DNA of 64,000 nt from an uncultured delta proteobacterium (GCA_963755125.1 CAVWIP010000017.1:6308-70307); one strand, 5' to 3'; positions 759 through 17,992 are shown, counted from the first letter of the stretch. Notes: a model not told the origin generated them from the letters alone. Numbers and translations: made by a program.

Positions 759-958
759 ATCACATCATCCTTTCAGTCCGCCCCTTTTGGTCGCGGACAT
801 TCGGCCATCGCATTCCGTGAAATAGCACCACAGGATTACGTCCTCGCCCGTCTCCGTCGAAGAAGGCCATGTCTGGTTCTTCTGGAATACCTCTCGGCCT
901 GCAGCCGAACTGACCGCACGCCGCCAGCGCGACGAGGATGCGATAATGGGTTTCATGT

Positions 959-1528: not shown

Positions 1529-1863
1529 ACCCCCCCTTTGATTGTGGCGTTATGGGCGACGCAGAGCCGCTTGGCGTCCATCATGCCCCAGATCCACCAG
1601 GCGACAGGGATGAGCACGGCGATGAAGCCGCCAACACCCAGCCCGGTGCCCGCGCCGGAAGTTGGTGTCCGCGCCGCAGTGGCTGCAAGATTGGTGGCCG
1701 TGCCGAAGCAACCGGCCATGCCGCCGAACCAACCGATCATGACCAGCGCCGGCGTGATGATCATCATGGTGATGCCGCGACCGATGCGGCCCGCGTAGAG
1801 CTGGCCGAGACCGGTCCAGAAGAAGGAGAGGACGATTGCCGTCCCGCTGCTCTTGGTTTCCAT
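1525..1863 (-). CDS. small membrane protein, TM2-like (paralog of 959..1528)
   Basis: WTGLGQLYAGRIGRG motif, 2 TM helices, DAKRLC conserved with neighbour; ATGA stop/start overlap with downstream paralog; GAGAGGAAG RBS. Confidence 0.45.
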   Translation of the reverse strand: METKSSGTAIVLSFFWTGLGQLYAGRIGRGITMMIITPALVMIGWFGGMAGCFGTATNLAATAARTPTSGAGTGLGVGGFIAVLIPVAWWIWGMMDAKRLCVAHNATIKGGV

Positions 1864-1888
1864 GGTCGCTTCCTCTCGGTGACTGCGG

Positions 1889-2629: not shown

Positions 2630-2688
2630 GTGAACTCCTTTCTTGAACTTGCGACCACGAACATCCATCTGTGCTGAAACTCGCGCGC

Positions 2689-2720
2689 ACTCCGCGCACA
2701 AGCCGCCTTGTGCGCGGAGT
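2689..2720. promoter_or_regulatory. perfect 14-bp inverted repeat with 4-nt loop in divergent promoter region (candidate operator)
   Basis: ACTCCGCGCACAAG ccgc CTTGTGCGCGGAGT between lipoprotein start (2629) and recombinase start (2751); no U-tract so not an intrinsic terminator. Confidence 0.3.
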
Positions 2721-2750
2721 AGCTCGCCTGAAGACGGCTTGGTCGGTACC

Positions 2751-3704
2751 ATGGAGGTACGCGATATGGACCAGGCCATCGCCGACTTCACCACCCACCT
2801 GCGCGACCGAAACCGGTCGCCGCTCACCGTCGCCCGCTACACCGACCTGCTCCGTCGGTTCGCTCGGTTCGCTTGCGCCGAGCTTCACCAGGACACGGTC
2901 ACCCCTAGCCAGATCGACAAAGCTCTGGTTGTTTTGTTCGTCCGGGAAGGTGGAGTGATCGGCGCTCAAGCATCGGCAGCAACGAGAAATAGCCGGCTCG
3001 CGGCTATCCGAGGGTTCTTTCGCTATCTGGTGGCGGAAGACCGCCTCGCGCGAGATCCGACGACCAGCATCCACTCAGCGAGCCTGCCAGAACGAGTCCC
3101 GACTTTCCTGACCGCGGAGGAGTTCACAATGCTCCGGCGCGCGGTGGAGGGTAGCGCTGCCGAGTTCTACCTTCGGCGTGACTCGGCGATCTTGGTCACT
3201 CTCTGGAACACCGGTCTACGGCTGGCAGAGCTGCTTTCCTTGGATTTGTCGGTGGTCGACTTCGGGGCCGAGGTCTTCCGCACCGTACGCAGAAAAGGCG
3301 GGAAGATCCTGCCCGTCTACTTCAACGTCGACGTGACCATAGCCCTCCGTCGGTGGCTATGGCAGCGCAAGGAATACCCGAATGCCGCCACCAGTCCCGC
3401 CTTGTTCTTGAGTGACCGCGGTCGGCGGTTGAGTTCGCGCGCTGTGGAGGATCTCGTAGGCAAATATGCGAAGCTCGCCGGCATCAAAAAACACGTCACG
3501 CCGCACGTGCTAAGGCACAGCACGGCCACGGCCTTGATCCGCGCGGGAAATGGGATCGAGGTCGTGGCCGACGTGCTCGCGCACTCGTCATTGGATACGA
3601 CGAGGCACTATATCCATCTCGTGGGAGAGCAGGTGCATGCCGCCGTTGCCTCGCTCGCCCAGCCTCCCCGGCGGCAAGTCACAAAAAGAAATACGGCTGT
3701 CTGA
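2751..3704 (+). CDS. tyrosine site-specific recombinase, XerC/XerD-like (phage integrase family)
   Basis: N-terminal SAM-like core-binding region (ADFTTHLRDRNRSPLTVARYTDLLRRF), catalytic R..HxLRH..R..Y pattern (VTPHVLRHSTATALI, TTRHYIH). Confidence 0.8.
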   Translation: MEVRDMDQAIADFTTHLRDRNRSPLTVARYTDLLRRFARFACAELHQDTVTPSQIDKALVVLFVREGGVIGAQASAATRNSRLAAIRGFFRYLVAEDRLARDPTTSIHSASLPERVPTFLTAEEFTMLRRAVEGSAAEFYLRRDSAILVTLWNTGLRLAELLSLDLSVVDFGAEVFRTVRRKGGKILPVYFNVDVTIALRRWLWQRKEYPNAATSPALFLSDRGRRLSSRAVEDLVGKYAKLAGIKKHVTPHVLRHSTATALIRAGNGIEVVADVLAHSSLDTTRHYIHLVGEQVHAAVASLAQPPRRQVTKRNTAV

Positions 3705-3988
3705 CCTCATAGTTCAAGAGAAACAATACCGCGCTGTGTCGGTGGACCCAGCACTTGGCGTTGGAACCGGGCCACGGTTTGGACTGAGCGCGCAATTCCC
3801 GATCATGAAGGTCGACACGAATGTGATTCACGCCTTCCTCCAAATGTGAGCTGTCCAACGACGACATCAAGTCGCTGGAGGGATGGTGAAGGGATCGAGA
3901 GATGTGGGTGAGTCCCTCGTTGACCACAGCCGCGATCGTCGTTCCATCAGTCGAAATGAAACTCCATCCCGATGGAAGACAGGGACTG

Positions 3989-5164
3989 CTAGCCGCCGCC
4001 TCCGACGGCGGGCTTTCCGCCAGGGGGCTTTGCGCCCTGGGCCTTTCCGCCCCCGCTGCCGCCAAAGAACAGACTTGCGACGTCGAATGTTCCGCCGATT
4101 CCAGCAGTCCAAGTCCAAACTTTCGAGTCGACCCCGACTTTCCCTGCCAGCGCTTGGGGTGACGTCGTGGACGCATTTCCAGGACTCACTGAGCTTGGCA
4201 CAGGATAAGCCGCACCAACGTCTTGTTGCACGTACGACTCGGTCACGCCGAACAGGAAATGTATGGCTGGGATGGGCGCCACCACGAGACCGACTGAGAA
4301 TAGCGGCCTTACACTGCGTGATCCTGTGACGAGTCCCGTGATGGTGTTACCCTGCGCGGTCAACACCGGCGTCTTTCCGTCAGAAAACATCAATGGCTGG
4401 TAGAGCGTTGTGTTGGTCTGGAATTGGGACGGTATACCACCAAACAGACCGATCCGACTGTAAATGCAGCTTCCCAATAGCGGATGAGAGTAGTACCGAT
4501 CGCGAGCTTCTTCGTGCCTACTGTGAGGATTCCTTTGAATGTCGGCCAAAATCATTCTAGTGTTGTCGTCGAGTTGACGGTTCGTCGCGTACGCGGCGTA
4601 CTCAGCATTAGCAACCTGGTCAAGCGCCGGTTGTTCCACCTTACTGTCATCAAAAGCCGACCGTGTGCAATACTGCACGTGTTTACTCACATCCTGATGA
4701 CGAAGGTAGCCTACCATGTAGCGAACCCACGTTCCCGGAAACACGGCAACATACGGCAAGGTTCCCGTCGTTGTTGAGTTCACTGCATTTCCGGTCGAGT
4801 TTGGCTTCGGAATCTGGACGATAGCCGCAGCTCCAGCGGCAAACCCATATTGAAGAAGTGCACCGCTTTGCAACTCCTGCCCAATATCCTGCTTTGAGGC
4901 ATCCTTTGAGGCACACTGCACGAGACACTGCGAGGCGCTATTCTGATCGGGCTGTGTGGACCGCCGGTGGGCGTCCGAATCAGGCGATGGGGTATCCTGC
5001 GATTTTGGGATCGCCTCTGCCGTTGGACTTGCAGACCTCGGCGTCGAACCCTCCTGGGAGGTCTGGGTTTCCACCTGCTGCGCAGAAGATCTCGTGGAGA
5101 TAGTGCTCGCAAGCGTAATGCCAGTCACTACCAGCCAGTTACATCGTCGCAATCGAGTTGCCAT
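3989..5164 (-). CDS. secreted hypothetical protein (Gly-rich C-terminus), lower-GC region
   Basis: signal peptide MATRLRRCNWLVVTGITLASTIST; local GC visibly lower than flanks; no recognised domain. Confidence 0.4.
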   Translation of the reverse strand: MATRLRRCNWLVVTGITLASTISTRSSAQQVETQTSQEGSTPRSASPTAEAIPKSQDTPSPDSDAHRRSTQPDQNSASQCLVQCASKDASKQDIGQELQSGALLQYGFAAGAAAIVQIPKPNSTGNAVNSTTTGTLPYVAVFPGTWVRYMVGYLRHQDVSKHVQYCTRSAFDDSKVEQPALDQVANAEYAAYATNRQLDDNTRMILADIQRNPHSRHEEARDRYYSHPLLGSCIYSRIGLFGGIPSQFQTNTTLYQPLMFSDGKTPVLTAQGNTITGLVTGSRSVRPLFSVGLVVAPIPAIHFLFGVTESYVQQDVGAAYPVPSSVSPGNASTTSPQALAGKVGVDSKVWTWTAGIGGTFDVASLFFGGSGGGKAQGAKPPGGKPAVGGGG

Positions 5165-6275
5165 AGAGCCTCGCGGTGCGCTGAGTTATAGGAAAGGCTC
5201 CACCAAACTAGGGATAAGTCATCGACGTGTCAAGAAATGTCAGGCATGTGTCGGGCCTGACTGCCAAAGAGCATTCTCCAGAAAGGGGTCGTGGAAAACC
5301 ACGACGGCCGCACCTTCGCGTCGCGCGTGGCTCCACCGCCTGCCCCCATGGCTCATTCGTATTCCTCGTCGCTGCATGGATATGGAAGCCGAACTTGCCA
5401 GAGAGGCAGCCCCAGCGCCTCGGTTTGAACACGCAAAGTCTCGGTACGAACCGCGCGCATGGCGACACGCTAGAAGGTCTAGTTTACCGTGGTGAGGAGG
5501 CCGACAACTTGAACTTCCCTTTCTTGGCGAAGGATGTGAAGCCCCAAGGCGCTGTCCTTGCCGCGTTCCACGAAGGCTACACCTTGGGCAGCCCACTCGG
5601 TGAGAGCGCCTTCGGTGCCGGATAGACGGAAACAGCTCTCACACCCTCGGTTTACTTCCTTACGTCCGGGGCATCACCATGCATCTTGATCTGGCGATCT
5701 GGCGGGGACAGCCCCGGGCGGCAAGAACCGGCTTTTCTTCAAACTCAATGCGCTTGACTTTGGTCAAACGCCGAGTCCATCATCTCCGATTGGGAGCGCG
5801 CACAAGGCGGCTTGTCTGACGAGTAATTGTTGCGCGAATCCATTGGTTCCTCCGCGTGGTTGTCGCGAAAAGATGGTCGCATATGGGAGAGCCTTCAAGC
5901 CGCAGTGTGATGTGCGCCGAGTAGACCAGAGCCAGGAAAGGAAGGTCGGCTGCGGAGACGAATGTGGCGTGGAATGGCCGTTCCACGCAGAATCTGTCGT
6001 CGCAGTACGAGCACGAGGCCGCCTCGCTCGCCTCGGGCAAACGCCCCGATGAGATTCCCGAGAGCGAATGCCCAATTGTGCTCAGGCGGATCATTCCCGT
6101 CATCGCATGAGCTCCTGATGCGGTTCCGCGCGCCCGACTGGGCCATCTCGGCCGCGCACTTCTTCGCCCCGCGGTTCGGCCGCCACGCGGTTCCCGATCG
6201 CGTCCACATCCTGAACCGGCTCGCGACCGCCAAAGAGTGTCCGTCCGCTCCCCGAGATGAGGCAGCGGTCGATTC

Positions 6276-6920
6276 TCACAACCGGATCGAGGTGAGTTTC
6301 TTCCTAATCCACCAGACCACTACGCCGAGGTATTCAGGGAGATCGCCATCTTTCGGCGTCTGAAGGTCCCGTATCTTCTTCTGAAGCATCCTCGTGGACC
6401 ATCGGCCGGGGCTGCGATGAGTCATCGCCTCAATGACGCCATCGAGTTTGGCGCGACGGTTGTTGCAGAGAAACTTGCGGTTGAGCCCAAGCACCTCGTC
6501 GAGTTCCCTGTCGAGGGTCCTATCGTCAGCGACTACTCGACCGTCGGCTGAGTATTCAACTTGGTCGTCGATGATGTGCTTAGTTGGATCTAGCACAATC
6601 GAGCGATCGCCCTTGCAGGTATCGCAATGCTGTTCTGTAGGCGGCTTGCCCTGTCCACCAAGGCAGGCCGCCAGCAGATTGTTCCAGTCGAGCTGTAGTG
6701 CTTGAAACTCCGATTGTGATCTCCGGTGCTCGATCTTCACTCCGGTTGGATTGTCAGAAATCCGCTGCATGCAGTAGCAACACAGGTTGCCTTGATCTCG
6801 AAGGAGTGCCATTCGGAGGTCGCTCTTGCAGGAGCCACTCAGGTTCCCGAATATGACTGCTCCATCCCGTTTTTCCTTCGTGAGAGACGACGGTTCCCGG
6901 CCTTTCTTGAAGTATCTCAT
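6276..6920 (-). CDS. ptuB: HNH endonuclease (TIGR02646-like), Septu PtuB-like
   Basis: Cys/His HNH-like cluster CCYCMQRI..IEHRRSQSE..HCDTCKG; ATGA overlap with upstream ATPase gene. Confidence 0.55.
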   Translation of the reverse strand: MRYFKKGREPSSLTKEKRDGAVIFGNLSGSCKSDLRMALLRDQGNLCCYCMQRISDNPTGVKIEHRRSQSEFQALQLDWNNLLAACLGGQGKPPTEQHCDTCKGDRSIVLDPTKHIIDDQVEYSADGRVVADDRTLDRELDEVLGLNRKFLCNNRRAKLDGVIEAMTHRSPGRWSTRMLQKKIRDLQTPKDGDLPEYLGVVVWWIRKKLTSIRL

Positions 6921-8266
6921 TGGTGGCCGAGAAACTGCAATAATGAGCGTAGTCGCACGATTTCTGCATCGCGATCGGTGAGCGTTGTTGCCAAGCGGTC
7001 GACAGCCTTCTTGGCATCTATCAGCTTCTCAACGTCGATGAGACCTGCAATTCTTCGCAACTCGGTCGCTTGCTTGTCTGGGCGACTGTGGGTGCCCATG
7101 ACTTCTTCCAGGATTGCATTCATATCTCGACCTAGTGTTGGGCTGTCGGGCACGGTCACAAGCAGTTCCTCGCCATCGCGGCTTAGGCTTCGAACGGAGC
7201 ACAAGGGGACATCGGCGAGTACGAGGGGTGAATGGGTCGTCACTATGAACTGGACGTTTGGAAAGGCTCGTCGAAGTCGAGTGAGGATGTCCCTCTGCCA
7301 GGCTGGATGAAGGTGTAACTCGATCTCGTCAATGAGCACCCAAGCCGGAATCCTGAGGGACGCCGCAGGCGTCTTGCCATTGCGTTCGCCGATCATCGCA
7401 AGACGTCTTGCCAGATCGGCAACGAGGGCGATCAGGCTGCGTTCGCCGTGAGAAAGTTGGTCGAGTAACAGATCTATTCCGGCCTTGTGTATGGCTACCT
7501 TTGGAATGGGCTTGCGTCTGACGTGAAGATCCTTGAAGCTCGGGAGAAGCGTCTCGACTGCGAGGCGCACGGCGTCGAGTTGTCTGTCCGTGGGGCGACG
7601 CCGGTCCAGGCGACTGGGGCGCGCAATGGCCGCATTCTCCGCGTCCTCACGTTCGCGAAACCACTGGGCAAACCATCGAAAGGTGGCTCCACCGATTCCC
7701 AAGGAATCCTCGTAGGGATTATCAGCATGCGGCCGGTCGGCGTCCTTGATGGTCGCTGCTGAGGAATCGACGTTTGCTCGATCAACCGAATAGTGAATTG
7801 TCAGCGGGATGTCTGCCCATGGTTCTCCAGACGCATCGAAGAACTCGCGAACAAGTGCCTCATTTTTAGGTTGGATGACTTCCCGAGCGATGCCATCCCG
7901 CTTGCCAACGTATGCCTGAAGTGGCCAGCCGTATGTTCGTGCTCGCTTCTTGTTTCGCCATCGAACGGCGAAGGAGACCTCGCAGCTCATCCGATCACGA
8001 CCGACAGAAATGTCACTCGCAGACGTGTTGCGGCTAATGGCTACCTTCTCGGCATGAGGTCTGGTCATGAGTTCGGCCGGGCCGTTTAGCGACATGAATA
8101 GGGAATCGAACATGTGATGCAGGCAGTCGAGAATCGCGGTCTTGCCTGTACCGTTTTTTCCGAAAAGGACCGTGAGGGAGGGGTCGAAGGTCGCCGTGGT
8201 GTCGTGAATGCCACGGTAGTCGCGCATAGTCAGGGACCTGATTACCGGTAGTCCGGTCTCAACCAT
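6917..8266 (-). CDS. ptuA: AAA/ABC-type ATPase, Septu PtuA-like
   Basis: Walker A VLFGKNGTGKT, ABC signature-like LSHGERSLIAL, Walker B WVLIDEIELHLHP, H-loop IVTTHSP; ATG at 8266 (alternative TTG at 8302). Confidence 0.6.
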   Translation of the reverse strand: MVETGLPVIRSLTMRDYRGIHDTTATFDPSLTVLFGKNGTGKTAILDCLHHMFDSLFMSLNGPAELMTRPHAEKVAISRNTSASDISVGRDRMSCEVSFAVRWRNKKRARTYGWPLQAYVGKRDGIAREVIQPKNEALVREFFDASGEPWADIPLTIHYSVDRANVDSSAATIKDADRPHADNPYEDSLGIGGATFRWFAQWFREREDAENAAIARPSRLDRRRPTDRQLDAVRLAVETLLPSFKDLHVRRKPIPKVAIHKAGIDLLLDQLSHGERSLIALVADLARRLAMIGERNGKTPAASLRIPAWVLIDEIELHLHPAWQRDILTRLRRAFPNVQFIVTTHSPLVLADVPLCSVRSLSRDGEELLVTVPDSPTLGRDMNAILEEVMGTHSRPDKQATELRRIAGLIDVEKLIDAKKAVDRLATTLTDRDAEIVRLRSLLQFLGHQ

Positions 8267-8409
8267 GGGCACCAGCTTCGCAGATGGACAGCAAAGCGAC
8301 AACTTCTCATGTTCCCCAGCATGGTGCTATGCGACGACAGAGACGCCAGAGCTGTGCTTCATGGGCGGGGCCACACCGGCCCGACCGGAAATTCGGGGAT
8401 CGTCTACAG

Positions 8410-9720
8410 CTAGCTGCGCAAGTGGGCAAGCTGCTCATCGAGCCGCTCGCGGAGCTCGGCAGACTTCCTCGCTGATACGACGTCGCCAGACTCCTTGAAG
8501 AGCTTCTCTGCGACGCTGAGATCGGCAATCTGCGCCTTGAGGTTGTCCTCGTTCCTCGGCTTCAGCGGGAACAAGGAGTGGGTCATCTTGTATGCCGCTT
8601 GGTCGAAGGTGGCGTCAATGTGACGCAAGAGTTCCTCGGCTTGCTTGAGGTAGTCCTTGGCCCGCTCCGTCTGTCGGGCCTTGAGCGCCCAGCGTGCCGC
8701 CGTGGTTTCAGCTTGGGCGGAATCGCGGCCGACGCCGAACTCGTGGCAGACGAGCAGGCACAAGTCGACGAGGTCAAGGCAGACATCGTCCGGATCCAGG
8801 TTCTGCCTCTTGCGTGCCGCCCGCCGGGCGAGAGCTGTATTGAAGAGCGCGCCCTGGAGCGACTGGTAGTCGCCCACGATGCCAGCGAGCACGGCGGCGC
8901 GCAGATGGAGGATGGCGCTCTCTTCGGGGTGATCGTGCCGCCTTTCCAGGATGCCGAGGATATTGAGCACGGAGATGAGTGACGAGATGTCGCCGCTACT
9001 CTCCAGCTGGGCTGCCATGCGACGAAGCATGTCGAGGCCGACCTCGACATCGCCGAACCGCTGGCCGAAAGCCCAGAGGGCCTTGAGTCGGGCGGCCACT
9101 GCCCGCCCGACGGGGTCTTTGCGTTTGCTCCATCTTGACTGGATGTCGCCGAGGAGATCGGCGTCGGCATTGAGAGCTGCCCGGCCCTTAAGGAGCGCGA
9201 CCCAAGCCGCAACGGGGACGTCCGACTTGTCATCGCCTAAATCATCAAGGCCTTCCAGGCTGGCCAATGCTTGCTCGGCGGAGCCTCTCTGTACCAATGT
9301 CGTCGCCTCGACGAGGGCCGCCAGTATCTTCGGCCAATCGTCGGATACCGTCGCCGGCACGCTACGCGATGCCAGCCATGCGCTCACTGCCTCGCGGTCG
9401 GGGAGGAAGGCGACCTCCTCGGGCGGCAGGCTGAGCTTCCAAGCACGGGTCTTCCCGTCGCAGCCCGTAAGCGATCGCGACTCCGCGTCCAGGCCGTCGA
9501 GATGACGGGCGACCTCTTTGCCGATGCTTGACGGCTTCTTGTGGCGCCAATCGCCGATCCTCCGCAGTTCATCCGGGTAGATGAAATCCTGCGCACGAAC
9601 TGGGTTCGTCCGCATCAGCGCGAGGGCCGCATAAAACTCAAACCATTGGCCCTTCGGGAACGAGTTTTTCCCGATGGTCACTGTCCCGTGGTCGAGGTCG
9701 ATTTGCGCGTGTGAATCCAT
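8410..9720 (-). CDS. hypothetical helical protein (436 aa) upstream of Septu-like pair, same strand
   Basis: Ala/Leu-rich helical repeats, no catalytic motif recognised; GGGAG RBS; 108-bp gap to ptuA. Confidence 0.45.
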   Translation of the reverse strand: MDSHAQIDLDHGTVTIGKNSFPKGQWFEFYAALALMRTNPVRAQDFIYPDELRRIGDWRHKKPSSIGKEVARHLDGLDAESRSLTGCDGKTRAWKLSLPPEEVAFLPDREAVSAWLASRSVPATVSDDWPKILAALVEATTLVQRGSAEQALASLEGLDDLGDDKSDVPVAAWVALLKGRAALNADADLLGDIQSRWSKRKDPVGRAVAARLKALWAFGQRFGDVEVGLDMLRRMAAQLESSGDISSLISVLNILGILERRHDHPEESAILHLRAAVLAGIVGDYQSLQGALFNTALARRAARKRQNLDPDDVCLDLVDLCLLVCHEFGVGRDSAQAETTAARWALKARQTERAKDYLKQAEELLRHIDATFDQAAYKMTHSLFPLKPRNEDNLKAQIADLSVAEKLFKESGDVVSARKSAELRERLDEQLAHLRS

Positions 9721-9944
9721 GTGAATCGGTGCTCCCGTAGCCTGACCTTTGCCGCCTCGGTGGCGCCTTCAGGGCGCTCCGGGGCGGCGGAAAGGAGGCT
9801 CGAAGCGATGCATGGATGATAACGCGCCAAGGCGGAATTGAAAAGAGACAGACATGAACTGAAGCCCAAACCCCTCGCCCCCGGCAGTCGAAGCCGCCGG
9901 GGCACCCGCTCCGAAGAACAACAAAGAGCACCAAGGAGAATGAC

Positions 9945-10193
9945 ATGAACGCCAAGAAGAAAGAACCGAACGAGTGCCGGAACCTGGAAGAGCAGAGAAA
10001 CCGCGAATCAATCCGCCCGCGCAGCGCCTGTGCTGGTGAGGTTCGCCACCACCGCGAGTGCGCCTGCGGCCGACCGCGTTCGCTCGTCCGCCACGGGCGC
10101 CGCTGGTACCGCTTGGGCGGCTGCCGGCGCTGCTTGGCCGCCCCAGCGGCGCCAATCGCGGCGTCCTCACTGAAAGGAGGCGGCCATGCGTAG
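9945..10193 (+). CDS. small Arg/Cys-rich protein (possible leader or regulator of downstream module)
   Basis: strong AAGGAG RBS 5-10 nt upstream of ATG 9945; overlaps start of next gene by 8 bp; composition unusual so uncertain. Confidence 0.25.
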   Translation: MNAKKKEPNECRNLEEQRNRESIRPRSACAGEVRHHRECACGRPRSLVRHGRRWYRLGGCRRCLAAPAAPIAASSLKGGGHA

Positions 10194-11190
10194 GCACGGG
10201 AATAAAGTCGATGTAGCCAGCGAATTGCGCATGCGCAAGATTGCGGCCTGCATTCATGCCGGTGCCACCAACATGCCGAGAAAGATCATTGAGGATCGGA
10301 TCGTCAGCGAAATCATCGAGGGGCGCGATGGCGAACCATGCGGGCGGCTCCGTGCCGAGAAGGCGCGACTGAAGGCGATTCGTACCGAAGACGGTGAGAT
10401 TGTCGCCCTCGTCGCCGAGCGGAAGAAGAAGATCGGGCCGGTCGAAAGATGCCTCGATGAGGCTGTCGCCGCCCGGCAGGCGGTCGAGAATGGGGAACTG
10501 CCGTCGTACAGCAACAAGGGGCAGACCATCGGCACGCTCGTCTTCGTGGCCGCCGACGGTTCGTTCATGTTCTGGGCCTTCTGTGACGTCGCCGGCATCG
10601 ACCTCACTCAGGGGGTCGGCGATCTCGCGGTCACGACTGCCGTCATGATCACCTTGGTATCGCTCTTAGGCGTCCTGGTGAATTCCTTCTGCGGCTTCCT
10701 CGCGACGAGCCCCCGCCCGCGGCTGCGGCTCGTCGGCTGGGCGTCGCTGCTAACGATCGCCGTGACCTTGGGAGTCATGCGGGCCAAGTCGACGGCCGAG
10801 ACGAACTACGCCTTCACGGTCTTCGGCTGCATCGTGACCATGGTGGCCGGCTACGCGGCCGGCGCCATCCAGCGGCGGTTGCTCCCGATCATCGGCGCTC
10901 ACCGCGCCCATCGCCGCCGCCTCGAAATCGCCCAGAAGGCTGAATCCGAAGCCCAAGCCAAGCTCGACGAAGTACACGCCGCCGTCGAGCAATTAGAGGA
11001 GCGTCGCCGGTGCCTCAAGGCTGAAGCCGAGAGCCTGGCGAGCATGCCGGCCCGGCGGGCGGCGCGGAAATCCGAAATCGAGAAGATCCAGGACGCCCGC
11101 CTCAAGTCCGTCCGTTACTACTACGCCTTGGGCCGGCGTCTCTTCGGGCGCAAGCCGGCCGACGAGGGGGAGGAGGCGTCCCGTGACTAG
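10186..11190 (+). CDS. membrane protein with N-terminal soluble domain, 3 TM helices and C-terminal coiled coil
   Basis: AAGGAGG RBS; hydrophobic segments LAVTTAVMITLVSLLGVLV / LVGWASLLTIAVTLGVM / FTVFGCIVTMVAGYAAGAI; heptad-like C-terminus. Confidence 0.5.
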   Translation: MRRHGNKVDVASELRMRKIAACIHAGATNMPRKIIEDRIVSEIIEGRDGEPCGRLRAEKARLKAIRTEDGEIVALVAERKKKIGPVERCLDEAVAARQAVENGELPSYSNKGQTIGTLVFVAADGSFMFWAFCDVAGIDLTQGVGDLAVTTAVMITLVSLLGVLVNSFCGFLATSPRPRLRLVGWASLLTIAVTLGVMRAKSTAETNYAFTVFGCIVTMVAGYAAGAIQRRLLPIIGAHRAHRRRLEIAQKAESEAQAKLDEVHAAVEQLEERRRCLKAEAESLASMPARRAARKSEIEKIQDARLKSVRYYYALGRRLFGRKPADEGEEASRD

Positions 11191-11923
11191 ACTGGGGCTT
11201 GCTTTGGCACTCTCCTCGCTCATCGCCTGTGGCGGACGGCCGCAGCCGGTCGAGCGGGTCAGCGTCCCCGACAATTCGACTTCGTCCCACGCCAGCGAGA
11301 TGAGCGTGAAAAAAGAGGCGCAGGCATTCCTCGACGAGCTCGTGCCGGGGAGCCGCTTCACGGTCATGCCGGTGGCCTGCACCAGCGACTTGGTCGAGAT
11401 CATCTACGATATTTGCGTGCCGCTCCGCTTCGGCTCGGGCGCGGCCCAGAAACGGAGAGCCTGGCTCGAGGCCGAGGAACGCCACCTCGAAACGCTCCGT
11501 CTGCGTCGGCCCGAACGCTGCAGCGGCGTCGTCGGCGCCATCTGGCGCGCCAGCCGCTTCCTGCAGGAAAGCGGCCGGCCGGTGAAGGAACTCTACATCA
11601 ACAGCGACTTGCGCGAGGTCTCGCCCGAGCTTGGGCCAGGGATCAATTTCGAGAAAGCCATTCCCGCGCCCGAAGACTTCCTCCTCAAGGTCAAGGAGAA
11701 GAACCTGCTGCCAGACCTCCACGGCGTCCGCGTGTATGTGTACGGCGTGCATGACGAGGCAAGCCCGGACTCCCGCCGGTGGACCTCCCAGCAGGCCGGC
11801 GCCTTGCGCGCGGCCTGGACGGCGTTCTTCAAAGCGGCCGGCGTCGATCACGTCGAATTCCGCGCCACCTCAACTTGGGAGAAGGCCGAGCCGGCCAACG
11901 TCGCCTGGGGCGGGCTGCGATGA
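11183..11923 (+). CDS. lipoprotein of unknown function
   Basis: GTG start after GGGGGAGGAGG RBS; signal MTRLGLALALSSLIACGG (lipobox LIACG); overlaps previous stop. Confidence 0.5.
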   Translation: MTRLGLALALSSLIACGGRPQPVERVSVPDNSTSSHASEMSVKKEAQAFLDELVPGSRFTVMPVACTSDLVEIIYDICVPLRFGSGAAQKRRAWLEAEERHLETLRLRRPERCSGVVGAIWRASRFLQESGRPVKELYINSDLREVSPELGPGINFEKAIPAPEDFLLKVKEKNLLPDLHGVRVYVYGVHDEASPDSRRWTSQQAGALRAAWTAFFKAAGVDHVEFRATSTWEKAEPANVAWGGLR

Positions 11924-12285
11924 CCGCGATCCTCGCGTTCGCATTGGTCGTGGCCGGGTTGGCGGTAGTCGTCGGGGCGCGAGAGACCGCCAAGAAGATC
12001 GGCTTGGCGGTCCTGGCGATCATCGTCTGTATGTCCGTCGGCCGCTGCATCCTTTGCTGGCTTTCCGCGGCCTCGGCGCCGTCGGTTGGCTCCGCGCCCG
12101 GCGTCGGTTGGTTCTGGCCGTCCATCGCCTTGGCGCTGATGGCGATCGGCGGGATTGCGTGGAAGTTGCGGGCAGCCCGGCAAAGTCGCCTGAACGAGCA
12201 TCGGCGTCGCCACATGCACCCGCGCCAACCGGCGCCGCTCCCGCCACCGAGCCACTCATCGGATCGCGGGGAGGAGCCGTTTTGA
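11920..12285 (+). CDS. small integral membrane protein (3 TM)
   Basis: ATGA overlap with previous gene; MTAILAFALVVAGLAVVVGA.., LAVLAIIVCMSVG, FWPSIALALMAIGGIAW hydrophobic helices. Confidence 0.4.
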   Translation: MTAILAFALVVAGLAVVVGARETAKKIGLAVLAIIVCMSVGRCILCWLSAASAPSVGSAPGVGWFWPSIALALMAIGGIAWKLRAARQSRLNEHRRRHMHPRQPAPLPPPSHSSDRGEEPF

Positions 12286-13910
12286 ACCTGGCGCTCACGC
12301 TCGCCCGTCGGGCGCTCCATGGCTCGGACGTGCGCCGGGCCATCGTGCTCCAGCACGAAGCGCTGAAGCGGGAGCGGCAGCGGGCCGAGAGCGGGAATCT
12401 CCCGCCGTGGGACATCGTCGCCGGCACGCCCACCTTTCTCATCGGCCAGACCGCCGACGGCCGAGCCGTCAAGCTCGACATGTCGACGCTGCTTGCCCAT
12501 CTGCTCCTTCTCGGCCCTACGCGCGTTGGGAAGACCGCGCTCATGGCCCTCCTCGTCAATGCCCTGCTTCATTTCGGGATCGTTTCCGTCATCGCCATCG
12601 GCGTTGGTAAGAATGACTCCATCGAGTACACGCGGGCGGTGCTTGCGAAGTGGCTCATGGGCCTGCCGCGGGAGCGGGCCGAGGATATCCTGGGCCGCGT
12701 GATCGTGGTGGCGCCGTCGTCGGGTTCGCACCTGGTGCCCTTCGACCTCACGGCGCCCGAGCCTGGCCGCTCGGCCGAGCTGCAGGCCGCCGACCTCACG
12801 CGCAGCCAGTTCGTCACGCACGCCCATCCCATCGGCCCCAAGCAGGAGGACATCGCCTATCTCACGTTTAGGTTGCTCATCGACACCGGGCTGCCGGCCA
12901 ACTTCTTCGACCGCCCTTTGCGGGATCCGGCGGTCGCTCAGCGTCTAGCCGACCGGACGTCCAACCCCGACCTGTACCGCGGCTACCTCGAACGCCTGCG
13001 CCGCGAGTACCGCAGCGATGCCGTCCTCGGGCTCGTCGCCCGCGCCAACGCCCACTACCGCCATGAGCCCACCCGGCTCATGGTGGGCGGCGCCGAGGGC
13101 GTCACCATCCACGCGCCGAAACTCTTCGACGGCATGGTGGCACTGGTCGACTTGACGGCGGAGTACGGCGCCGAGGACGCCATTCGCTTCATCGGCTCGA
13201 CCTTGTGGAGTCGCTTGGTGCGGGCGTCACTGGCCAGGCTGGTGGGTAGCCCGCCGTGCTTCGTGTTGGCCGACGAGTTCCAGCAGCTGCTCCAGTCGGA
13301 GCAGGATGCGGCACTGGCGCTCGAAAATGTCTTGCGCCTTTGTGCGGCGCGTAGTGTGTGGTGGTGGCTTGCGACGCAGACGCTCGCCGGTCTGGAACGG
13401 TACGGCTCGTCGCTATCCAAGGTCATCGCGGTCAACGCCACGTTCAAGGCGATCTTCCGCACCTCGGACGCCATCGACGGCCTGCTGCCGGTGACCGGTC
13501 GTCGGCGGAGGCCGTGGGCTCCGGCTCCGTGGCAGAAACCGGCCGATTATTATCTCTCGCGGAGCGAGGAAAGGGCCTATCTGGCCGAGCAACTCGCCTC
13601 TCTCGGCCCCCGGCTCTGCTACGTCCAGCACGCGAAGAGCGGCCGGGCCGGGACATTGATCCGCACGGCGGATGCGACCGTGTCCATGCCCGAGGACTGC
13701 CCGGACTTCATCCGCGTGGGGCTCGAGCGCGGCACGTTGGCCGTGCCAGTCGAGAAACTTCGCCGGGGGCTCGATGCTGCCGAGCGGCGGTTCGCGGCGC
13801 TCGTGGACGATCCGCGCGCGGCCGAGATAGCCAGAACCGAGTCCGCGGCCATCGAGGTTTCGTCGCCCAAGCGGAAGACGCCGCGGGCGCGGCCGTTGGA
13901 GATGGGGTGA
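12282..13910 (+). CDS. P-loop ATPase of FtsK/HerA/VirD4 (T4CP-like) superfamily
   Basis: Walker A GPTRVGKT, Walker B CFVLADEF, downstream WWLATQTL (ATQ motif typical of FtsK-HerA clade); probable TTG start overlapping previous stop. Confidence 0.5.
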   Translation: MNLALTLARRALHGSDVRRAIVLQHEALKRERQRAESGNLPPWDIVAGTPTFLIGQTADGRAVKLDMSTLLAHLLLLGPTRVGKTALMALLVNALLHFGIVSVIAIGVGKNDSIEYTRAVLAKWLMGLPRERAEDILGRVIVVAPSSGSHLVPFDLTAPEPGRSAELQAADLTRSQFVTHAHPIGPKQEDIAYLTFRLLIDTGLPANFFDRPLRDPAVAQRLADRTSNPDLYRGYLERLRREYRSDAVLGLVARANAHYRHEPTRLMVGGAEGVTIHAPKLFDGMVALVDLTAEYGAEDAIRFIGSTLWSRLVRASLARLVGSPPCFVLADEFQQLLQSEQDAALALENVLRLCAARSVWWWLATQTLAGLERYGSSLSKVIAVNATFKAIFRTSDAIDGLLPVTGRRRRPWAPAPWQKPADYYLSRSEERAYLAEQLASLGPRLCYVQHAKSGRAGTLIRTADATVSMPEDCPDFIRVGLERGTLAVPVEKLRRGLDAAERRFAALVDDPRAAEIARTESAAIEVSSPKRKTPRARPLEMG

Positions 13911-13913
13911 CTA

Positions 13914-14242
13914 TGGCGGGCAAGAAGTCGGGCATCTGGTGGGCCATGAAGATGGTGTTGTTGTTGACGTTCTTCGCCGTGTACGGCGTCGTCTGCTTGG
14001 TCGGCTCGACAATCCGACTCGCCCGAAGGATCTGCTGGGGCATCAGGCTCCTCCGTCACACGATCCGTTGCCCATATTGCCATTTCGAGGTGCCTTTGGT
14101 CGGTCGCTATTTGTGCTCGACACCGGGTTGCGGCGCCGAATACCAGGGCTTCATCCAGAAGTGCAACATCTGCGGCAGCGGCTGCCTGTGGACGCCGTGC
14201 CCGCGGTGTAGCGCCGCTGTGCAGGTGGGGATGAGGACATGA
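13914..14242 (+). CDS. small membrane protein with double CxxC zinc-ribbon
   Basis: TM helix MKMVLLLTFFAVYGVVCLVG; CPYCHF..CSTPGC..CNICGSGC..CPRC; starts 4 nt after ATPase stop. Confidence 0.4.
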
Positions 14243-15159
14243 CCGGCACCGTCAACGGCACGTGGCCCTTTCTCGATCCGCGCATGGACCGCGAGCGCGT
14301 CGTGCGCATCTGCTACGTGGTCGCACGGCTCGGCTACTTCTGGTGCGCCGACTGCGGCTTCATCTTCTTCAAGCGCAAGAACACGGCTCGGCAGTACCCG
14401 GCCCGGCTCGTGAAGCGCGGCCTGCTCGAAACCTTCCCGCGTCGGAGCCTGGCCGACTCGCACGTCTATCGCGTCTCGGAACGTGCGCTCGAATGGCTGG
14501 TAGACGAGATTGGCTGCGACCCCAGCGACGTCTGGCGGCCCGCGAGTCTAAGGCGCTTGAACGTTCCCGCCGCGCGCGCCATGAACCGCTTCTGGTGCTC
14601 GCTCGTGGCCGCCTGTGAGGGCTCGCCGATACGCTTGCACCGTTTCGTGCCCGAGCGCCAGTTGCGCCGGTTCAAGGCGCCGGGTTGCCCTGTGGTGCCG
14701 GACGCGCTCTTTGTGCTGGAGGCGTCGGCCGAGGGCGGCGCCGAGGGCGCATCGCGGCTGCCCTGGTTCGTCGAGCAGGACAACAGCACCGAGCGCCTCA
14801 AGGTCTGGGCCGAGAAGATCCGCGGCTACCGGTCCAATCTGCCCTCGGGCCGCCTGTACGGGATGCGTGACTGGCTGCTGCTTGTGCTGGCGCCAACGCG
14901 CAAACGCGCGGCCAACATCAGCCGCACGGCCGTCGCCGCTGGCGGCGGCGACTTCACCTACGTCGCCATCGCCGCCGTGCTCGAAGGCGGGCACGCCTTG
15001 GACGCCGTGCTCTGGCGGGCTTCGACCCTCGCCGCGGACGCCAATGCCGTGCCGACCGACACGCTGGTTTCCGCCGCTCGGAGCACGTCTCGACCTACGT
15101 CAACAACCCCTGTCAGGCCTGACGGGCTTTCCCAGCACCTTTCCGGAGGAATTCCGTGA
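14239..15159 (+). CDS. putative winged-helix DNA-binding protein (replication-relaxation-like)
   Basis: ATGA overlap with previous gene; N-terminal wHTH-like RICYVVARLGYF..; family assignment tentative. Confidence 0.35.
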   Translation: MTGTVNGTWPFLDPRMDRERVVRICYVVARLGYFWCADCGFIFFKRKNTARQYPARLVKRGLLETFPRRSLADSHVYRVSERALEWLVDEIGCDPSDVWRPASLRRLNVPAARAMNRFWCSLVAACEGSPIRLHRFVPERQLRRFKAPGCPVVPDALFVLEASAEGGAEGASRLPWFVEQDNSTERLKVWAEKIRGYRSNLPSGRLYGMRDWLLLVLAPTRKRAANISRTAVAAGGGDFTYVAIAAVLEGGHALDAVLWRASTLAADANAVPTDTLVSAARSTSRPTSTTPVRPDGLSQHLSGGIP

Positions 15160-15493
15160 AGTTCCCTTTTTCAAGGCTGCGGTCAATACGCCCTGCCTGC
15201 TCTGGCGGGCAGGGCGCCTCTGTTTGGGCGGCGGCGCCGCCGCCCTCGCGCGCGGCGCGGGCCATGCCCCCGCGCGCCTTCCCGAGATCCCTGTCACGCC
15301 GGCTCGGCCGGCGATTCGTACCGGTATTCATTTGCATTCGCACACAACAAGTTCAGGCGCGGGAGTGTCCGCGCCGAAAGGAGGTCGGTCACGGAACATC
15401 GGGCCACGCGGAAGTTGGTGGAGACTGGCCAGCCGAGTCGCGCTCGCGGCTTGCACACCGGGCTCTCTTTACTCAACTAAAGCAACACCCAAT

Positions 15494-16186
15494 ATGAGCA
15501 ACCACAACCTGACGTACAGCATCTCCAAGCGGACTCCGGCAACGCCGAAGGCCGTCAAGGAGATCTTGGACGCCCAAGCGGCATTAAATAGCGCCTGCAC
15601 CTGGACGCACGAACGCCTCGCGTTCGTACCGCCTCGGGACGCGGGACGCGCGGCCTTCCCCCTGCAATTCGCGAGATTTGGACTCGCATCAGCCAACCCG
15701 CCTGCTTTGGACGGATTCGGCGCTCATCCGCCGACTCCTCCTGCGGATGTCTTCATGTCCGGCTCGACGCGCGTGCGCGACAACCTATGGAACGCCCACC
15801 TCGTCGCAGCATTCTTGAAGCACATCTCGCGCAAGCATCCGACGCTGCTCTTCGAGCTACGCGACGACGGCGGGTTCGTGATCCCGGGTTCCGTATGGAT
15901 CCGGGGAGGTGCTGTGGAAGTAAACCGCGAGTTCCTGAATACAGAGCGCGCGCGAGTGCTGGAAGTCACCGGCGACCCGCAGGCCGCAGTTCCGTACGTG
16001 TGGGCCGAACTTCAGGCTCTCGGAGGGTCCTTCTTCGCGGAAGCGTCGATGGACGACTTCGGGAACGTGCCGGAAGTCCGGGAGCTGGGAGCTTCCTGGG
16101 ACCAGCTTGAGAGCATGAGCATCGAGGATCTCGCCTCGCTTGTCGTCGAACACGCGACGACGGAGGCGGTCCCCGTCGCGGCTTAG
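15494..16186 (+). CDS. hypothetical protein
   Basis: ATG 15494; 230 aa; no recognised motif. Confidence 0.35.
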   Translation: MSNHNLTYSISKRTPATPKAVKEILDAQAALNSACTWTHERLAFVPPRDAGRAAFPLQFARFGLASANPPALDGFGAHPPTPPADVFMSGSTRVRDNLWNAHLVAAFLKHISRKHPTLLFELRDDGGFVIPGSVWIRGGAVEVNREFLNTERARVLEVTGDPQAAVPYVWAELQALGGSFFAEASMDDFGNVPEVRELGASWDQLESMSIEDLASLVVEHATTEAVPVAA

Positions 16187-16337
16187 GCAGGAGGCCCATG
16201 TCATTCGTGATCAACCAGCAGAAGGGGGCGGGCGGAGCGCGAGTCCGGTGTGCGACGCGATCGCGTCGCGGCTTCGCGCCACCGTCCGCCCCCGCTGCGC
16301 TACGAGTCATACGGCAAACAACTACGAGGGGTGCAGC

Positions 16338-16613
16338 ATGAACACGATCACCGCAACGACCGGCGCTGAGCCGTCATCGCCCGCGAGCGCGGCGGACGAT
16401 TCGCGCCTTTGGGACGCGAACGATGTGGCCCGGTTCATCGGCGCCAGCCGTTCCTGGGTCTACCATCAAGCGGAAGCGGGACGATTGCCTTGCATCCGCC
16501 TTCTCGGTTTCCTACGCTTCGATCCCCAAGTGGTCCGGGCTTTCGTGCTGGCGGCGTCGTCCGCGCCAGCAAGGTTGAAGTCCGGCGACGCTTCGGGCGC
16601 TTCAGGGAGATAG
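16338..16613 (+). CDS. excisionase/AlpA-family HTH DNA-binding protein
   Basis: WDANDVARFIGASRSWVYHQAEAGRLPCIRL HTH; GAGGGGTG RBS; immediately precedes integrase. Confidence 0.55.
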   Translation: MNTITATTGAEPSSPASAADDSRLWDANDVARFIGASRSWVYHQAEAGRLPCIRLLGFLRFDPQVVRAFVLAASSAPARLKSGDASGASGR

Positions 16614-16616
16614 GCC

Positions 16617-17981: not shown

Positions 17982-17992
17982 GCTACTCGCGC
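17920..17992 (-). tRNA. tRNA-Gly(CCC), 73 nt, no encoded CCA; atypical T-loop TCCGAGC
   Basis: minus-strand GCGCGAG TA GCTC AGTTGGTA GAGC A TCGGC TTCCCAA GCCGA GGGTC GCGGG TCCGAGC CCCGT CTCGCGC T: 7-bp acceptor, D arm, anticodon CCC, U73 discriminator. Confidence 0.6.

What the first reader, a model, noticed from the sequence alone, without database searches (positions are those of the whole stretch)
6276..9720. Septu-like PtuA/PtuB pair preceded by an unknown 436-aa helical protein
ABC-like ATPase (GTGKT, LSHGERS, LIDEIELHLHP, TTHSP) overlapping a TIGR02646-type HNH gene is the Septu signature. The upstream same-strand 436-aa protein has no assignable motif and could be a third component/sensor. 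The ~1.1 kb upstream region 5165..6275 has no convincing ORF (only short overlapping frames).
Basis: partly seen in the sequence, partly recalled or inferred. Interest (0 to 1): 0.55.

Follow-up and report, generated by a model that had tools for sequence, protein, structure and literature searches.

The report
Ordinary Septu pair in mobile-element cargo slot
This is a standard two-gene Septu anti-phage system (PtuA ATPase plus PtuB HNH nuclease) carried as swappable cargo in a myxobacterial-type integrative element, and the 436-aa gene in front of it belongs to the element's backbone rather than to Septu.

Summary
The three minus-strand genes are real. PtuA (6917-8266) and PtuB (6276-6920, 4-nt overlap) match PADLOC Septu type I profiles over their full length (E 6e-103 and 9e-63). 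All ATPase and HNH motifs are intact. No reverse transcriptase or Rfam RNA lies nearby, so this is stand-alone Septu, not the retron-linked form.

None of 11 independent loci encoding a 436-aa homolog, each with at least 1.2 kb downstream, has PtuAB. None of the 4 distinct contexts of the closest PtuAB pairs has the 436-aa gene.

The 436-aa protein models confidently (pLDDT 95) as a small N-terminal beta/alpha domain plus a TPR superhelix. It travels with the backbone of an integrative element: Replic_Relax, a P-loop ATPase, and an integrase beside tRNA-Gly. Related elements carry other cargo at the same position (an Mrr-like nuclease, or unknown proteins).

The "empty" 1.1 kb lies downstream of ptuB, not upstream. 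It holds a decayed Dph6-like pseudogene and a strongly conserved ~165-nt block of unknown role.

Verdict: ordinary, low interest.

The parts
6917..8266 (-). ptuA: Septu ABC-type ATPase. 449 aa from the ATG at 8266; the longest ORF starts at TTG 8302; gene callers used ATG 8227 (436 aa).
   Evidence: PADLOC PDLC00271 PtuA1 E=5.9e-103, covering profile positions 3-414 of 421. Pfam AAA_21, AAA_15 and SMC_N. PDB Septu PtuA 8ee4 E=6e-31 and retron PtuA E=5e-35. Walker A, signature, Walker B and H-loop motifs read directly.
6276..6920 (-). ptuB: Septu HNH nuclease, 214 aa. Its start overlaps the ptuA stop by 4 nt.
   Evidence: PADLOC PDLC00322 PtuB1 E=9.2e-63 over the full length. TIGR02646 scores 53.6 bits against a cut-off of 52.15. 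PDB PtuB 8ee7 and retron PtuB hits; the CxxC and catalytic 'IEH' align with Ec83 PtuB.
8267..8409 (-). 143-nt spacer between the 436-aa gene and ptuA. It lies inside the variable cargo segment.
   Evidence: No sigma-70-like promoter and no terminator-like hairpin were found here. Homology to related elements stops at about 8423-8438, i.e. at the 3' end of the 436-aa gene.
8410..9720 (-). 436-aa protein: N-terminal ~125-aa beta/alpha domain (winged-helix-like topology, unverified) plus a C-terminal TPR superhelix. It is an element-backbone gene, not a Septu gene.
   Evidence: No PADLOC or NCBIfam hit. It belongs to a family of 211 50%-identity clusters. The AF2 model has pLDDT 95.1. Foldseek top matches are LGN/Pins TPR and Rap/NprR regulators. 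The profile hits designed and kinesin-light-chain TPRs. It is syntenic with the backbone in L001, L005 and L023. GC3 is 0.78, like the backbone and unlike ptuAB at 0.62-0.65.
5916..6275 (-). 360-nt 3' flank of ptuB of unknown content, the distal part of the variable cargo segment.
   Evidence: It has no homology to the regions downstream of ptuB in other PtuAB loci, nor to L005 or L023. No Rfam match. Only overlapping short ORFs without family hits.
5750..5915 (-). Conserved ~165-nt block. It contains a Shine-Dalgarno sequence plus a small ORF (MDSRNNYSSDKPPCAR...) and the hairpin 5771-5750. Function unknown.
   Evidence: Shared with L005 and L023. The core is about 92% identical between window and L023, whereas their flanking genes are about 67% identical at the DNA level. 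The hairpin was found.
5277..5642 (-). Pseudogene of a Dph6-like PP-loop ATP pyrophosphatase: only the 5' third remains, with three in-frame stops and one frameshift.
   Evidence: tblastn with the intact L023 237-aa gene gives 75% identity over 72 aa with 3 in-frame stops, plus a second segment in another frame. The intact gene matches PF01902 at E=2.4e-28 and TIGR03679.
3989..5164 (-). 391-aa predicted secreted protein of unknown family; a second low-GC cargo gene.
   Evidence: No Pfam, PADLOC or NCBIfam hit. GC3 is 0.59. It is absent from L023 at this position.
2643..3704 (+). XerC/D-like tyrosine recombinase, convergent with the cargo genes. Conserved backbone gene on the far side of the cargo.
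   Evidence: Pfam Phage_integrase E=5.7e-33 plus SAM-like N-terminal domain. It is 89% identical to its L023 counterpart in the same relative position.
9945..17981 (+). Element backbone, transcribed divergently from the 436-aa gene. Order: 82-aa, 334-aa membrane protein, 246-aa, 121-aa, 542-aa P-loop ATPase, 109-aa, Replic_Relax (14239-15159), 230-aa, HTH_17 (16140-16613), tyrosine integrase (16617-17981).
   Evidence: Pfam and NCBIfam hits. The same gene order is seen in L001 and L023 and in the same-element contigs L016-L019.
17919..17992 (-). tRNA-Gly(CCC) abutting the integrase gene.
   Evidence: ARAGORN and Rfam.

Best explanation
ptuA-ptuB is a self-contained, stand-alone (type I) Septu anti-phage system.

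Mechanism (inferred by homology, not shown here). By analogy with characterised Septu, PtuA oligomerises and docks PtuB through its C-terminal extension. ATP binding holds the HNH nuclease in check. Infection releases the nuclease, which cuts nucleic acid (DNA nicking or tRNA-Tyr cleavage in studied homologs) and blocks phage replication.

Locus organisation (shown). The pair sits as horizontally acquired, lower-GC cargo in a variable slot of an integrative, probably mobilisable or conjugative, element of a Myxococcota-like host. The slot is bounded on one side by the 3' end of the 436-aa gene. On the other side it is bounded by a conserved ~165-nt block, followed by a Dph6-like gene (decayed here) and a Xer-like recombinase.

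The 436-aa protein (inferred). It is a backbone gene of that element. It is most likely a DNA-binding/TPR regulator acting on the divergent promoter region it shares with the transfer and replication genes. It is not a Septu subunit.
For: Septu identity:
- Full-length matches to PADLOC PtuA1 and PtuB1 profiles.
- TIGR02646 scores above its cut-off.
- Homology to solved Septu and retron PtuA/PtuB structures, with the catalytic His and Zn-binding cysteines aligned.
- 4-nt gene overlap and intact Walker A, signature, Walker B and H-loop motifs.

Two-gene autonomy:
- The 9 contigs (4 distinct contexts) carrying the closest PtuA homologs all have ptuB directly after ptuA.
- Their neighbours are unrelated, and none has a 436-aa homolog.

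The 436-aa gene belongs to the backbone:
- L001 and L023 (66% identical) and L005 (90% identical) keep the divergent backbone genes.
- Each carries different genes after the 436-aa gene: Mrr_cat nuclease, a 479-aa secreted protein, a 379-aa unknown.
- L023 also keeps the conserved block, an intact Dph6-like gene and the Xer-like recombinase (89% identical) on the far side.

Composition: GC3 is 0.62-0.65 for ptuAB, 0.78 for the 436-aa gene and 0.82-0.86 for the backbone.

Mobile-element character: integrase abutting tRNA-Gly, HTH_17, Replic_Relax, and a P-loop ATPase with weak TraD-like similarity.

Mechanism from literature: stand-alone Septu is a PtuAB ATPase-nuclease pair forming a 6:2 complex that cleaves DNA and is inhibited by ATP (PMC12640716, PMC12819146). 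Septu cleaves tRNA-Tyr during T6 infection (PMC13096335 abstract).
Against: - No experiment was done. Activity, substrate and trigger of this distant PtuAB are inferred; it matches the solved E. coli Septu PtuA (8ee4) at phmmer E=6e-31, aligned only over its C-terminal half (residues 230-426 of 436).
- The 436-aa gene is co-oriented with ptuA, only 143 nt upstream, with no predicted terminator or sigma-70-like promoter between them. Read-through co-transcription, and therefore some regulatory coupling, cannot be excluded.
- The ends of the element were not found. No repeat of the tRNA 3' part occurs in 1-16500.
- The variable-slot picture rests on only three related elements.
- The DNA-binding nature of the N-terminal domain is not supported by any sequence method.
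Confidence: 0.8

Rival explanations
1. Three-component Septu variant: the 436-aa wHTH-like/TPR protein is a dedicated sensor, antitoxin or transcriptional regulator of PtuAB at this locus.
For: - Same strand, 143-nt gap, no predicted terminator between the genes.
- TPR arrays are common ligand or peptide sensors, and Foldseek finds Rap/NprR-type regulators among the best matches.
- In more distant family members the gene overlaps or abuts a downstream gene, so it behaves like an operon leader (MFS in L002-4).
Against: - 0 of 11 independent family loci with at least 1.2 kb downstream carry PtuAB.
- 0 of 4 contexts of the closest PtuAB pairs carry the gene.
- The 66-90% identical orthologs are followed by unrelated cargo.
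- GC3 differs from that of ptuAB.
- PtuA has no extra domain that could dock a partner: the PADLOC profile is covered end to end, and it is 436-449 aa against 542-552 aa for retron-bound PtuA.
Confidence: 0.07
2. Retron-linked (type II Septu / retron type I-A) system whose reverse transcriptase and ncRNA were missed, for example hidden in the 1.1-kb gap.
For: PADLOC retron I-A ATPase and HNH profiles and NCBIfam retron-Ec78 PtuA and PtuB models also hit. A 1.1-kb stretch without an intact ORF lies next to ptuB.
Against: - NCBIfam equivalog scores are far below their cut-offs: 249 against 500, and 92 against 150.
- No RVT domain was found in any neighbouring ORF from 2.6 to 19.4 kb.
- No Rfam match even at E<=1.
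- The gap is explained by a Dph6-like pseudogene and a block conserved in elements that lack PtuAB.
- It lies 3' of ptuB, whereas retron ncRNA and RT lie 5' of ptuA (PMC12640716, Fig. 1 legend).
- PtuA lacks the roughly 100 extra residues of retron PtuA.
Confidence: 0.02
3. The Septu pair is a decaying, non-functional remnant in a degenerating island.
For: The adjacent Dph6-like gene is a pseudogene. No att repeat was found for the element.
Against: Both ORFs are full length against their profiles, with all catalytic motifs intact. A PtuA identical over the 436 residues from the 8227 start is found on 8 contigs; the four shown come from four different sequencing samples.
Confidence: 0.06

Closest known systems
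Stand-alone Septu (type I; Doron et al. 2018; E. coli Septu structures 8EE4/8EE7, Li et al. 2024 as cited in PMC12640716)
   Same: - Two adjacent, overlapping genes: an ABC-type ATPase PtuA of about 440 aa and a TIGR02646-type HNH PtuB of about 215 aa.
- Full-length PADLOC PtuA1 and PtuB1 matches.
- Sequence homology to 8ee4 and 8ee7.
- No accessory gene is conserved.
   Different: - Distant in sequence from the solved E. coli pair: phmmer E=6e-31 for PtuA and 5e-05 for PtuB.
- The signature motif reads LSHGER. It has Glu where retron PtuA has Gln361 and E. coli Septu has Leu (PMC12819146).
- The host is Myxococcota-like and the pair sits in an integrative element.
- Substrate and trigger are unknown.
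Retron type I-A / type II Septu (Retron-Eco7/Ec78, Retron-Eco4/Ec83)
   Same: Homologous PtuA and PtuB effectors. The best PDB sequence hits for PtuA are retron PtuA chains, over the C-terminal half.
   Different: No RT, ncRNA or msDNA partner. PtuA is about 100 aa shorter and lacks room for the N-terminal extension and helical flap described in PMC12819146. NCBIfam equivalog cut-offs are not reached.
TPR-containing transcription or quorum regulators of mobile elements (RRNPP family: RapI of ICEBs1, Rap of pLS20, phage Rap/AimR-like). Architecturally, also OmpR-type wHTH plus TPR regulators (SARP-like). This comparison concerns the 436-aa protein only.
   Same: - A small N-terminal domain followed by a roughly 300-residue TPR superhelix.
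- Foldseek E of about 3e-5 to 1e-3 to Rap, NprR, RapI and pLS20 Rap.
- Encoded on a mobile element, divergent from its transfer and replication genes.
   Different: - No sequence homology to these families.
- The top structural matches are generic TPR proteins (LGN/Pins).
- The N-terminal fold could not be assigned.
- No Phr-like peptide gene was identified.
- The family is Gram-negative and Myxococcota-centred.
Defence or cargo hotspots of mobile elements (P2/P4 hotspots, SXT ICE hotspot 5). From my own knowledge of the literature, not checked here.
   Same: A fixed position between conserved backbone genes is occupied by different, often defence-related, cargo in related elements: Septu here, an Mrr-like nuclease in L001.
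   Different: Only three related elements were seen. Two of the alternative cargos (379-aa and 479-aa proteins) have no recognisable defence domain. The recombination mechanism and the borders are undefined.

Membership tests
Septu type I (PtuA+PtuB) | PtuA: ABC/SMC-like ATPase matching PtuA profiles over its full length | tested here: met
   PADLOC PDLC00271 E=5.9e-103, profile positions 3-414 of 421. Pfam AAA_21, AAA_15 and SMC_N.
Septu type I (PtuA+PtuB) | Intact nucleotide-binding motifs (Walker A, signature, Walker B/D-loop, H-loop) | tested here: met
   GKNGTGKT, LSHGERS, LIDEIELHLHP and TTHSP read in the translation.
Septu type I (PtuA+PtuB) | PtuB: TIGR02646-type HNH nuclease matching PtuB profiles | tested here: met
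   PADLOC PDLC00322 E=9.2e-63, profile positions 1-213 of 215. TIGR02646 53.6 bits against a cut-off of 52.15.
Septu type I (PtuA+PtuB) | HNH catalytic His and Zn-binding cysteines present | tested here: met
   CCYC...IEH...NNLLAAC...HCDTC. The 'kiEH' aligns with 'kvEH' of Ec83 PtuB, which is mutated to EA in entry 9o4a.
Septu type I (PtuA+PtuB) | ptuA immediately followed by co-oriented ptuB | tested here: met
   4-nt overlap at 6917-6920. The same arrangement is seen in all 9 related contigs.
Septu type I (PtuA+PtuB) | Confers phage resistance; ATP-inhibited PtuA6:PtuB2 nuclease complex | not testable with these tools
   Known only for studied homologs (PMC12640716, PMC12819146).
Retron type I-A / Septu type II | Retron reverse transcriptase encoded next to ptuA | tested here: not met
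   The upstream gene is a TPR protein. No RVT domain was found in any ORF scanned between 2.6 and 19.4 kb.
Retron type I-A / Septu type II | msr-msd non-coding RNA | tested here: inconclusive
   No Rfam match at gathering score or at E<=1. Retron ncRNAs are diverse, so absence from Rfam scans is weak evidence. The gap is otherwise explained.
Retron type I-A / Septu type II | Retron-type PtuA and PtuB (NCBIfam equivalogs NF041760 and NF041761; PtuA of about 550 aa with N-terminal extension and flap) | tested here: not met
   Scores of 249 against 500 and 92 against 150. PtuA is 436-449 aa against 542-552 aa, and only the C-terminal half aligns.
Hypothetical three-gene Septu including the 436-aa protein | Homologs of the 436-aa protein co-occur with PtuAB | tested here: not met
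   0 of 11 independent loci with at least 1.2 kb downstream. Only the window's own element (L016-L019) has both.
Hypothetical three-gene Septu including the 436-aa protein | The closest PtuAB pairs carry a 436-aa homolog | tested here: not met
   0 of 4 distinct contexts, 9 contigs, L007-L015.
TPR-repeat proteins (436-aa protein, residues ~129-436) | Helix-turn-helix repeat superhelix with TPR sequence signal | tested here: met
   AF2 pLDDT 95.1, 16 paired helices. Foldseek matches LGN/Pins TPR at E=8e-6. The family profile matches CTPR at E=4e-10 and kinesin light chain TPRs. A single-sequence Pfam TPR_12 hit is only 17.4 bits, below the cut-off.
OmpR/PhoB-type winged-helix DNA-binding domain (436-aa protein, residues 1-125) | Sequence or structural match to a wHTH domain | tested here: inconclusive
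   The predicted order of elements is consistent: three strands, helix, short helix, helix, beta-hairpin. However, Pfam finds nothing. The PDB profile search gives only spurious hits. A domain-only fold search could not be run.
tRNA-integrated mobile element (ICE/IME) | Tyrosine integrase adjacent to a tRNA gene, plus transfer and replication genes | tested here: met
   Integrase 16617-17981 abuts tRNA-Gly 17919-17992. HTH_17, Replic_Relax and a P-loop ATPase with weak TraD similarity are present.
tRNA-integrated mobile element (ICE/IME) | Direct repeat of the tRNA 3' part marking the distal end | tested here: not met
   No 16-mer with at most 1 mismatch in 1-16500 and no meaningful exact 10-mer in 1-9000 (one isolated 10-nt match inside the 436-aa gene at 8634). 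The distal end may lie outside the window or be decayed.

The most novel reading that the evidence does not exclude
The 436-aa wHTH-like/TPR gene, the highly conserved ~165-nt block (5750-5915) and the nearby Xer-like recombinase together form a dedicated cargo-exchange module of a family of Myxococcota integrative elements. In this reading the block is the recombination site (or a regulatory RNA) at which defence genes such as Septu or Mrr-like nucleases are swapped, and the TPR protein possibly controls expression of whatever occupies the slot.
Probability: 0.12. Interest if true: 0.5.

Novelty: new member of a known kind. Interest (0 to 1): 0.2.

Why it matters
It adds a divergent, apparently intact Septu pair from a Myxococcota-like mobile element, and it shows that the tempting three-gene reading is a positional coincidence. 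The by-products are modest. One is an uncharacterised ~211-cluster family of TPR proteins with an unassigned N-terminal domain and no Pfam model. The other is a small set of related integrative elements with a variable cargo position, which could be mined for new defence genes such as the 379-aa protein in L005.

Tried and rejected
- Retron hypothesis: no RT domain and no Rfam hit.
- Structured RNA in 5165-6275: Rfam at E<=1 found nothing. RNAalifold on the three copies of the conserved block gave a covariation term of only -0.32 kcal/mol, too few sequences to judge.
- att-site search: no repeat of the tRNA-Gly 3' part in 1-16500.
- No direct or inverted repeats flank the cargo or are shared between its two junctions.
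- N-terminal domain assignment failed by sequence:
  - Pfam at E<=10.
  - A PDB profile search, which gave only spurious Protein A repeats.
- The first AF2 run with 5 sequences was poor (pLDDT 67.5). It was superseded by the 50-sequence run.
- Genome-contig scan with PtuA peptide patterns found no close relative.
- Alignments A3 and A4 were too divergent for the search for related loci.
- PADLOC on alternative cargo and on gap ORFs: no credible hits.
- L029 appeared to have a tyrosine recombinase directly after its 436-aa homolog (tblastn), but Pfam on the frame I chose found nothing. This is left unresolved.


Full report
**1. Observation**

All three genes lie on the minus strand:
- a 436-aa ORF at 8410..9720;
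- an ATPase ORF at 6917..8302 as the longest ORF;
- a 214-aa ORF at 6276..6920, whose start overlaps the ATPase stop by 4 nt.

The ATPase's longest ORF starts at a TTG. The probable start is the ATG at 8266 (449 aa). Close homologs are 450 aa, and the PADLOC profile begins at ORF residue 21. Gene callers on identical contigs chose the ATG at 8227 (436 aa).

One correction is needed. Because the genes run right to left, 5165..6275 is downstream of ptuB, not upstream.

**2. Septu identity**

- PADLOC gives full-length hits: PtuA1 E=5.9e-103 (profile 3-414 of 421) and PtuB1 E=9.2e-63 (profile 1-213 of 215).
- TIGR02646 passes its cut-off, 53.6 against 52.15 bits.
- Both proteins are homologous to solved Septu and retron PtuA/PtuB chains.
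- The PtuB CxxC and catalytic 'IEH' align with Ec83 PtuB.

The retron-specific NCBIfam equivalogs hit but stay far below their cut-offs: 249 against 500, and 92 against 150. PtuA is about 100 aa shorter than retron PtuA, and only its C-terminal half aligns. No reverse transcriptase domain occurs in any ORF scanned between 2.6 and 19.4 kb. Rfam finds nothing in 5000-10300 even at E<=1.

This is therefore stand-alone (type I) Septu, not the retron-linked type II described in PMC12640716 and PMC12819146. Its mechanism is inferred from those papers: a PtuA oligomer docks PtuB, nuclease activity is inhibited by ATP, and the outputs are DNA nicking or tRNA-Tyr cleavage. The T6 tRNA-Tyr result is from the PMC13096335 abstract.

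**3. Is the 436-aa protein a third component?**

It has no PADLOC or NCBIfam hit, and only a sub-threshold Pfam TPR_12 hit. A word-indexed search of 5.8 billion proteins found five relatives. An exhaustive profile search found a genuine but small family of 211 clusters at 50% identity, mostly 420-450 aa.

I fetched loci for as many members as the tools allowed and searched them with tblastn using all window proteins.
- Eleven independent loci have at least 1.2 kb of sequence downstream of the homolog. None encodes PtuA or PtuB.
- Their neighbours include an Mrr_cat nuclease (L001), a 379-aa unknown (L005), a 479-aa secreted protein (L023), an MFS transporter (L002-4), an MBOAT/GDSL/AMP-binding cluster (L020), DUF6338 (L030) and an ABC ATPase (L036).

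The converse also holds. The closest PtuA homologs (47-74% identity) lie on nine contigs in four distinct contexts. Each has ptuB immediately downstream, and none has the 436-aa gene.

**4. What the 436-aa gene belongs to**

Upstream of it, and divergent from it, lie these genes:
- an 82-aa gene, a 334-aa membrane protein, a 246-aa gene and a 121-aa gene;
- a 542-aa P-loop ATPase with weak TraD-like similarity, and a 109-aa gene;
- a Replic_Relax protein and a 230-aa gene;
- an HTH_17 protein;
- a tyrosine integrase that abuts tRNA-Gly(CCC).

This is the gene set of an integrative mobilisable or conjugative element. L001 and L023 (436-aa protein 66% identical) and L005 (90% identical) keep this backbone in the same order.

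L023 also keeps three further features on the far side of the cargo:
- a XerC/D-like recombinase, 89% identical to window 2643-3704;
- a conserved non-coding block;
- an intact 237-aa Dph6-like PP-loop ATPase gene (PF01902).

DNA homology between the window and these relatives stops at about 8423-8438, the last codons of the 436-aa gene. It resumes at about 5863-5915. The intervening roughly 2.5 kb, ptuAB plus 360 nt, is replaced by other genes in the relatives.

Composition agrees. GC3 is 0.62-0.65 for ptuAB and 0.59 for the 391-aa gene. It is 0.78 for the 436-aa gene and 0.82-0.86 for the backbone.

Septu is therefore cargo in a variable slot, and the 436-aa gene is the last backbone gene before that slot.

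**5. What the 436-aa protein probably does**

With a 50-sequence alignment, AlphaFold2 gives a confident model: pLDDT 95.1, pTM 0.89.
- Residues 1-125 form three strands, a helix, a short helix, a long helix and a beta-hairpin, followed by a strand and a helix.
- Residues 129-436 form a TPR-like superhelix.

Foldseek's best matches are generic TPR arrays (LGN/Pins). Next come Rap/NprR-type regulators, including RapI and the pLS20 Rap conjugation regulator. The family profile hits consensus TPR and kinesin light chain TPRs.

The N-terminal topology resembles an OmpR/PhoB winged helix, but no sequence method supports this, and I could not run a domain-only fold search.

My best inference is a DNA-binding/TPR regulator acting on the 224-nt divergent region it shares with the transfer genes. 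A promoter-like site at 9844-9816 is conserved in L005 and partly in L001. This is inference, not shown.

Read-through into ptuAB cannot be excluded. The 143-nt spacer has no predicted terminator or sigma-70-like promoter.

**6. The 'empty' 1.1 kb**

- **5277-5642** is a pseudogene of the Dph6-like gene. tblastn with the intact L023 protein gives 75% identity over 72 residues, interrupted by three in-frame stops, plus a second segment in another frame. Only about the first 100-120 codons remain.
- **5750-5915** is a block shared with L005 and L023. Its core is about 92% identical between window and L023, although their neighbouring genes are only about 67% identical at the DNA level. It carries a Shine-Dalgarno sequence plus a small ORF with a conserved N-terminus, and a conserved hairpin at 5771-5750. 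Three sequences are too few for a covariation test. Its role is unexplained; it could be a leader or attenuator of the Dph6-like gene, a small RNA, or a recombination site.
- **5916-6275** has no match to anything I fetched.

**7. Verdict**

The pair is a new member of a well-known system. The third-gene hypothesis is rejected. The gap is mostly gene decay. Interest is low.

The only part with some potential is the variable cargo slot with its conserved block and flanking Xer-like recombinase, which rests on three related elements.

Noticed in passing
window 17955-17993 and 58272-58310; integrase ORF 18027-19424 (-): There is an exact 39-bp direct repeat of the 5' half of tRNA-Gly(CCC), about 40.3 kb away. 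A second tyrosine integrase (Pfam E=4e-17) lies directly on the 5' side of the tRNA. This suggests a second, ~40-kb integrated element on the other side of the same tRNA gene. It would be unusual in duplicating the 5' rather than the 3' part of the tRNA.
   Followed up: partly
window 5750-5915 (-); L005 3690-3860; L023 9385-9565: This ~165-nt block is far more conserved than the surrounding genes. It has a Shine-Dalgarno sequence plus a small ORF (M[DN]SR[DN]N[YH]SSDKPP...) and a hairpin. It sits at the distal junction of the variable cargo and upstream of the Dph6-like gene. Its function is unknown.
   Followed up: partly
window 5277-5642 (-): Pseudogene of a Dph6-like PP-loop ATP pyrophosphatase (PF01902), with three in-frame stops, a frameshift and a 3' truncation. 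The gene is intact in the related element L023 at 9656-10369.
   Followed up: yes
L005 2374-3513 (+); L001 7763-9265 (-): These are the genes occupying the same slot as Septu in related elements. One is a 379-aa protein with a Cys-rich C-terminus and no Pfam or PADLOC hit. The other is a 500-aa protein with an Mrr_cat nuclease domain. Both are candidate defence genes.
   Followed up: partly
L001 10207-12324 (-); L023 12216-13517 (+): Large secreted proteins next to the related elements end in a GCGC...hydrophobic...RRRR tail that resembles the MYXO-CTERM sorting signal (my reading). The best PtuA relatives are from Polyangia and Myxococcales MAGs, and there is a Nannocystaceae hit for the 436-aa family. 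Together these point to a Myxococcota host.
   Followed up: no
window 9721-9944: The divergent intergenic region between the 436-aa gene and the 82-aa backbone gene contains a GC-rich inverted repeat (GCCCCGGCGG...CCGCCGGGGGC), conserved in L005. It also contains a -10-like 'GTTAnCnTnnATGCATCG' motif conserved in L005 and L001. These are possible operator and promoter elements.
   Followed up: no
L029 9204-10469 (-): A distant (40% identical) 436-aa homolog is followed directly by a convergent ORF with weak tblastn similarity to tyrosine recombinases (E about 1e-5). This might be an 'empty slot' version of the arrangement. Pfam on the frame I translated found nothing, so it is unresolved.
   Followed up: partly
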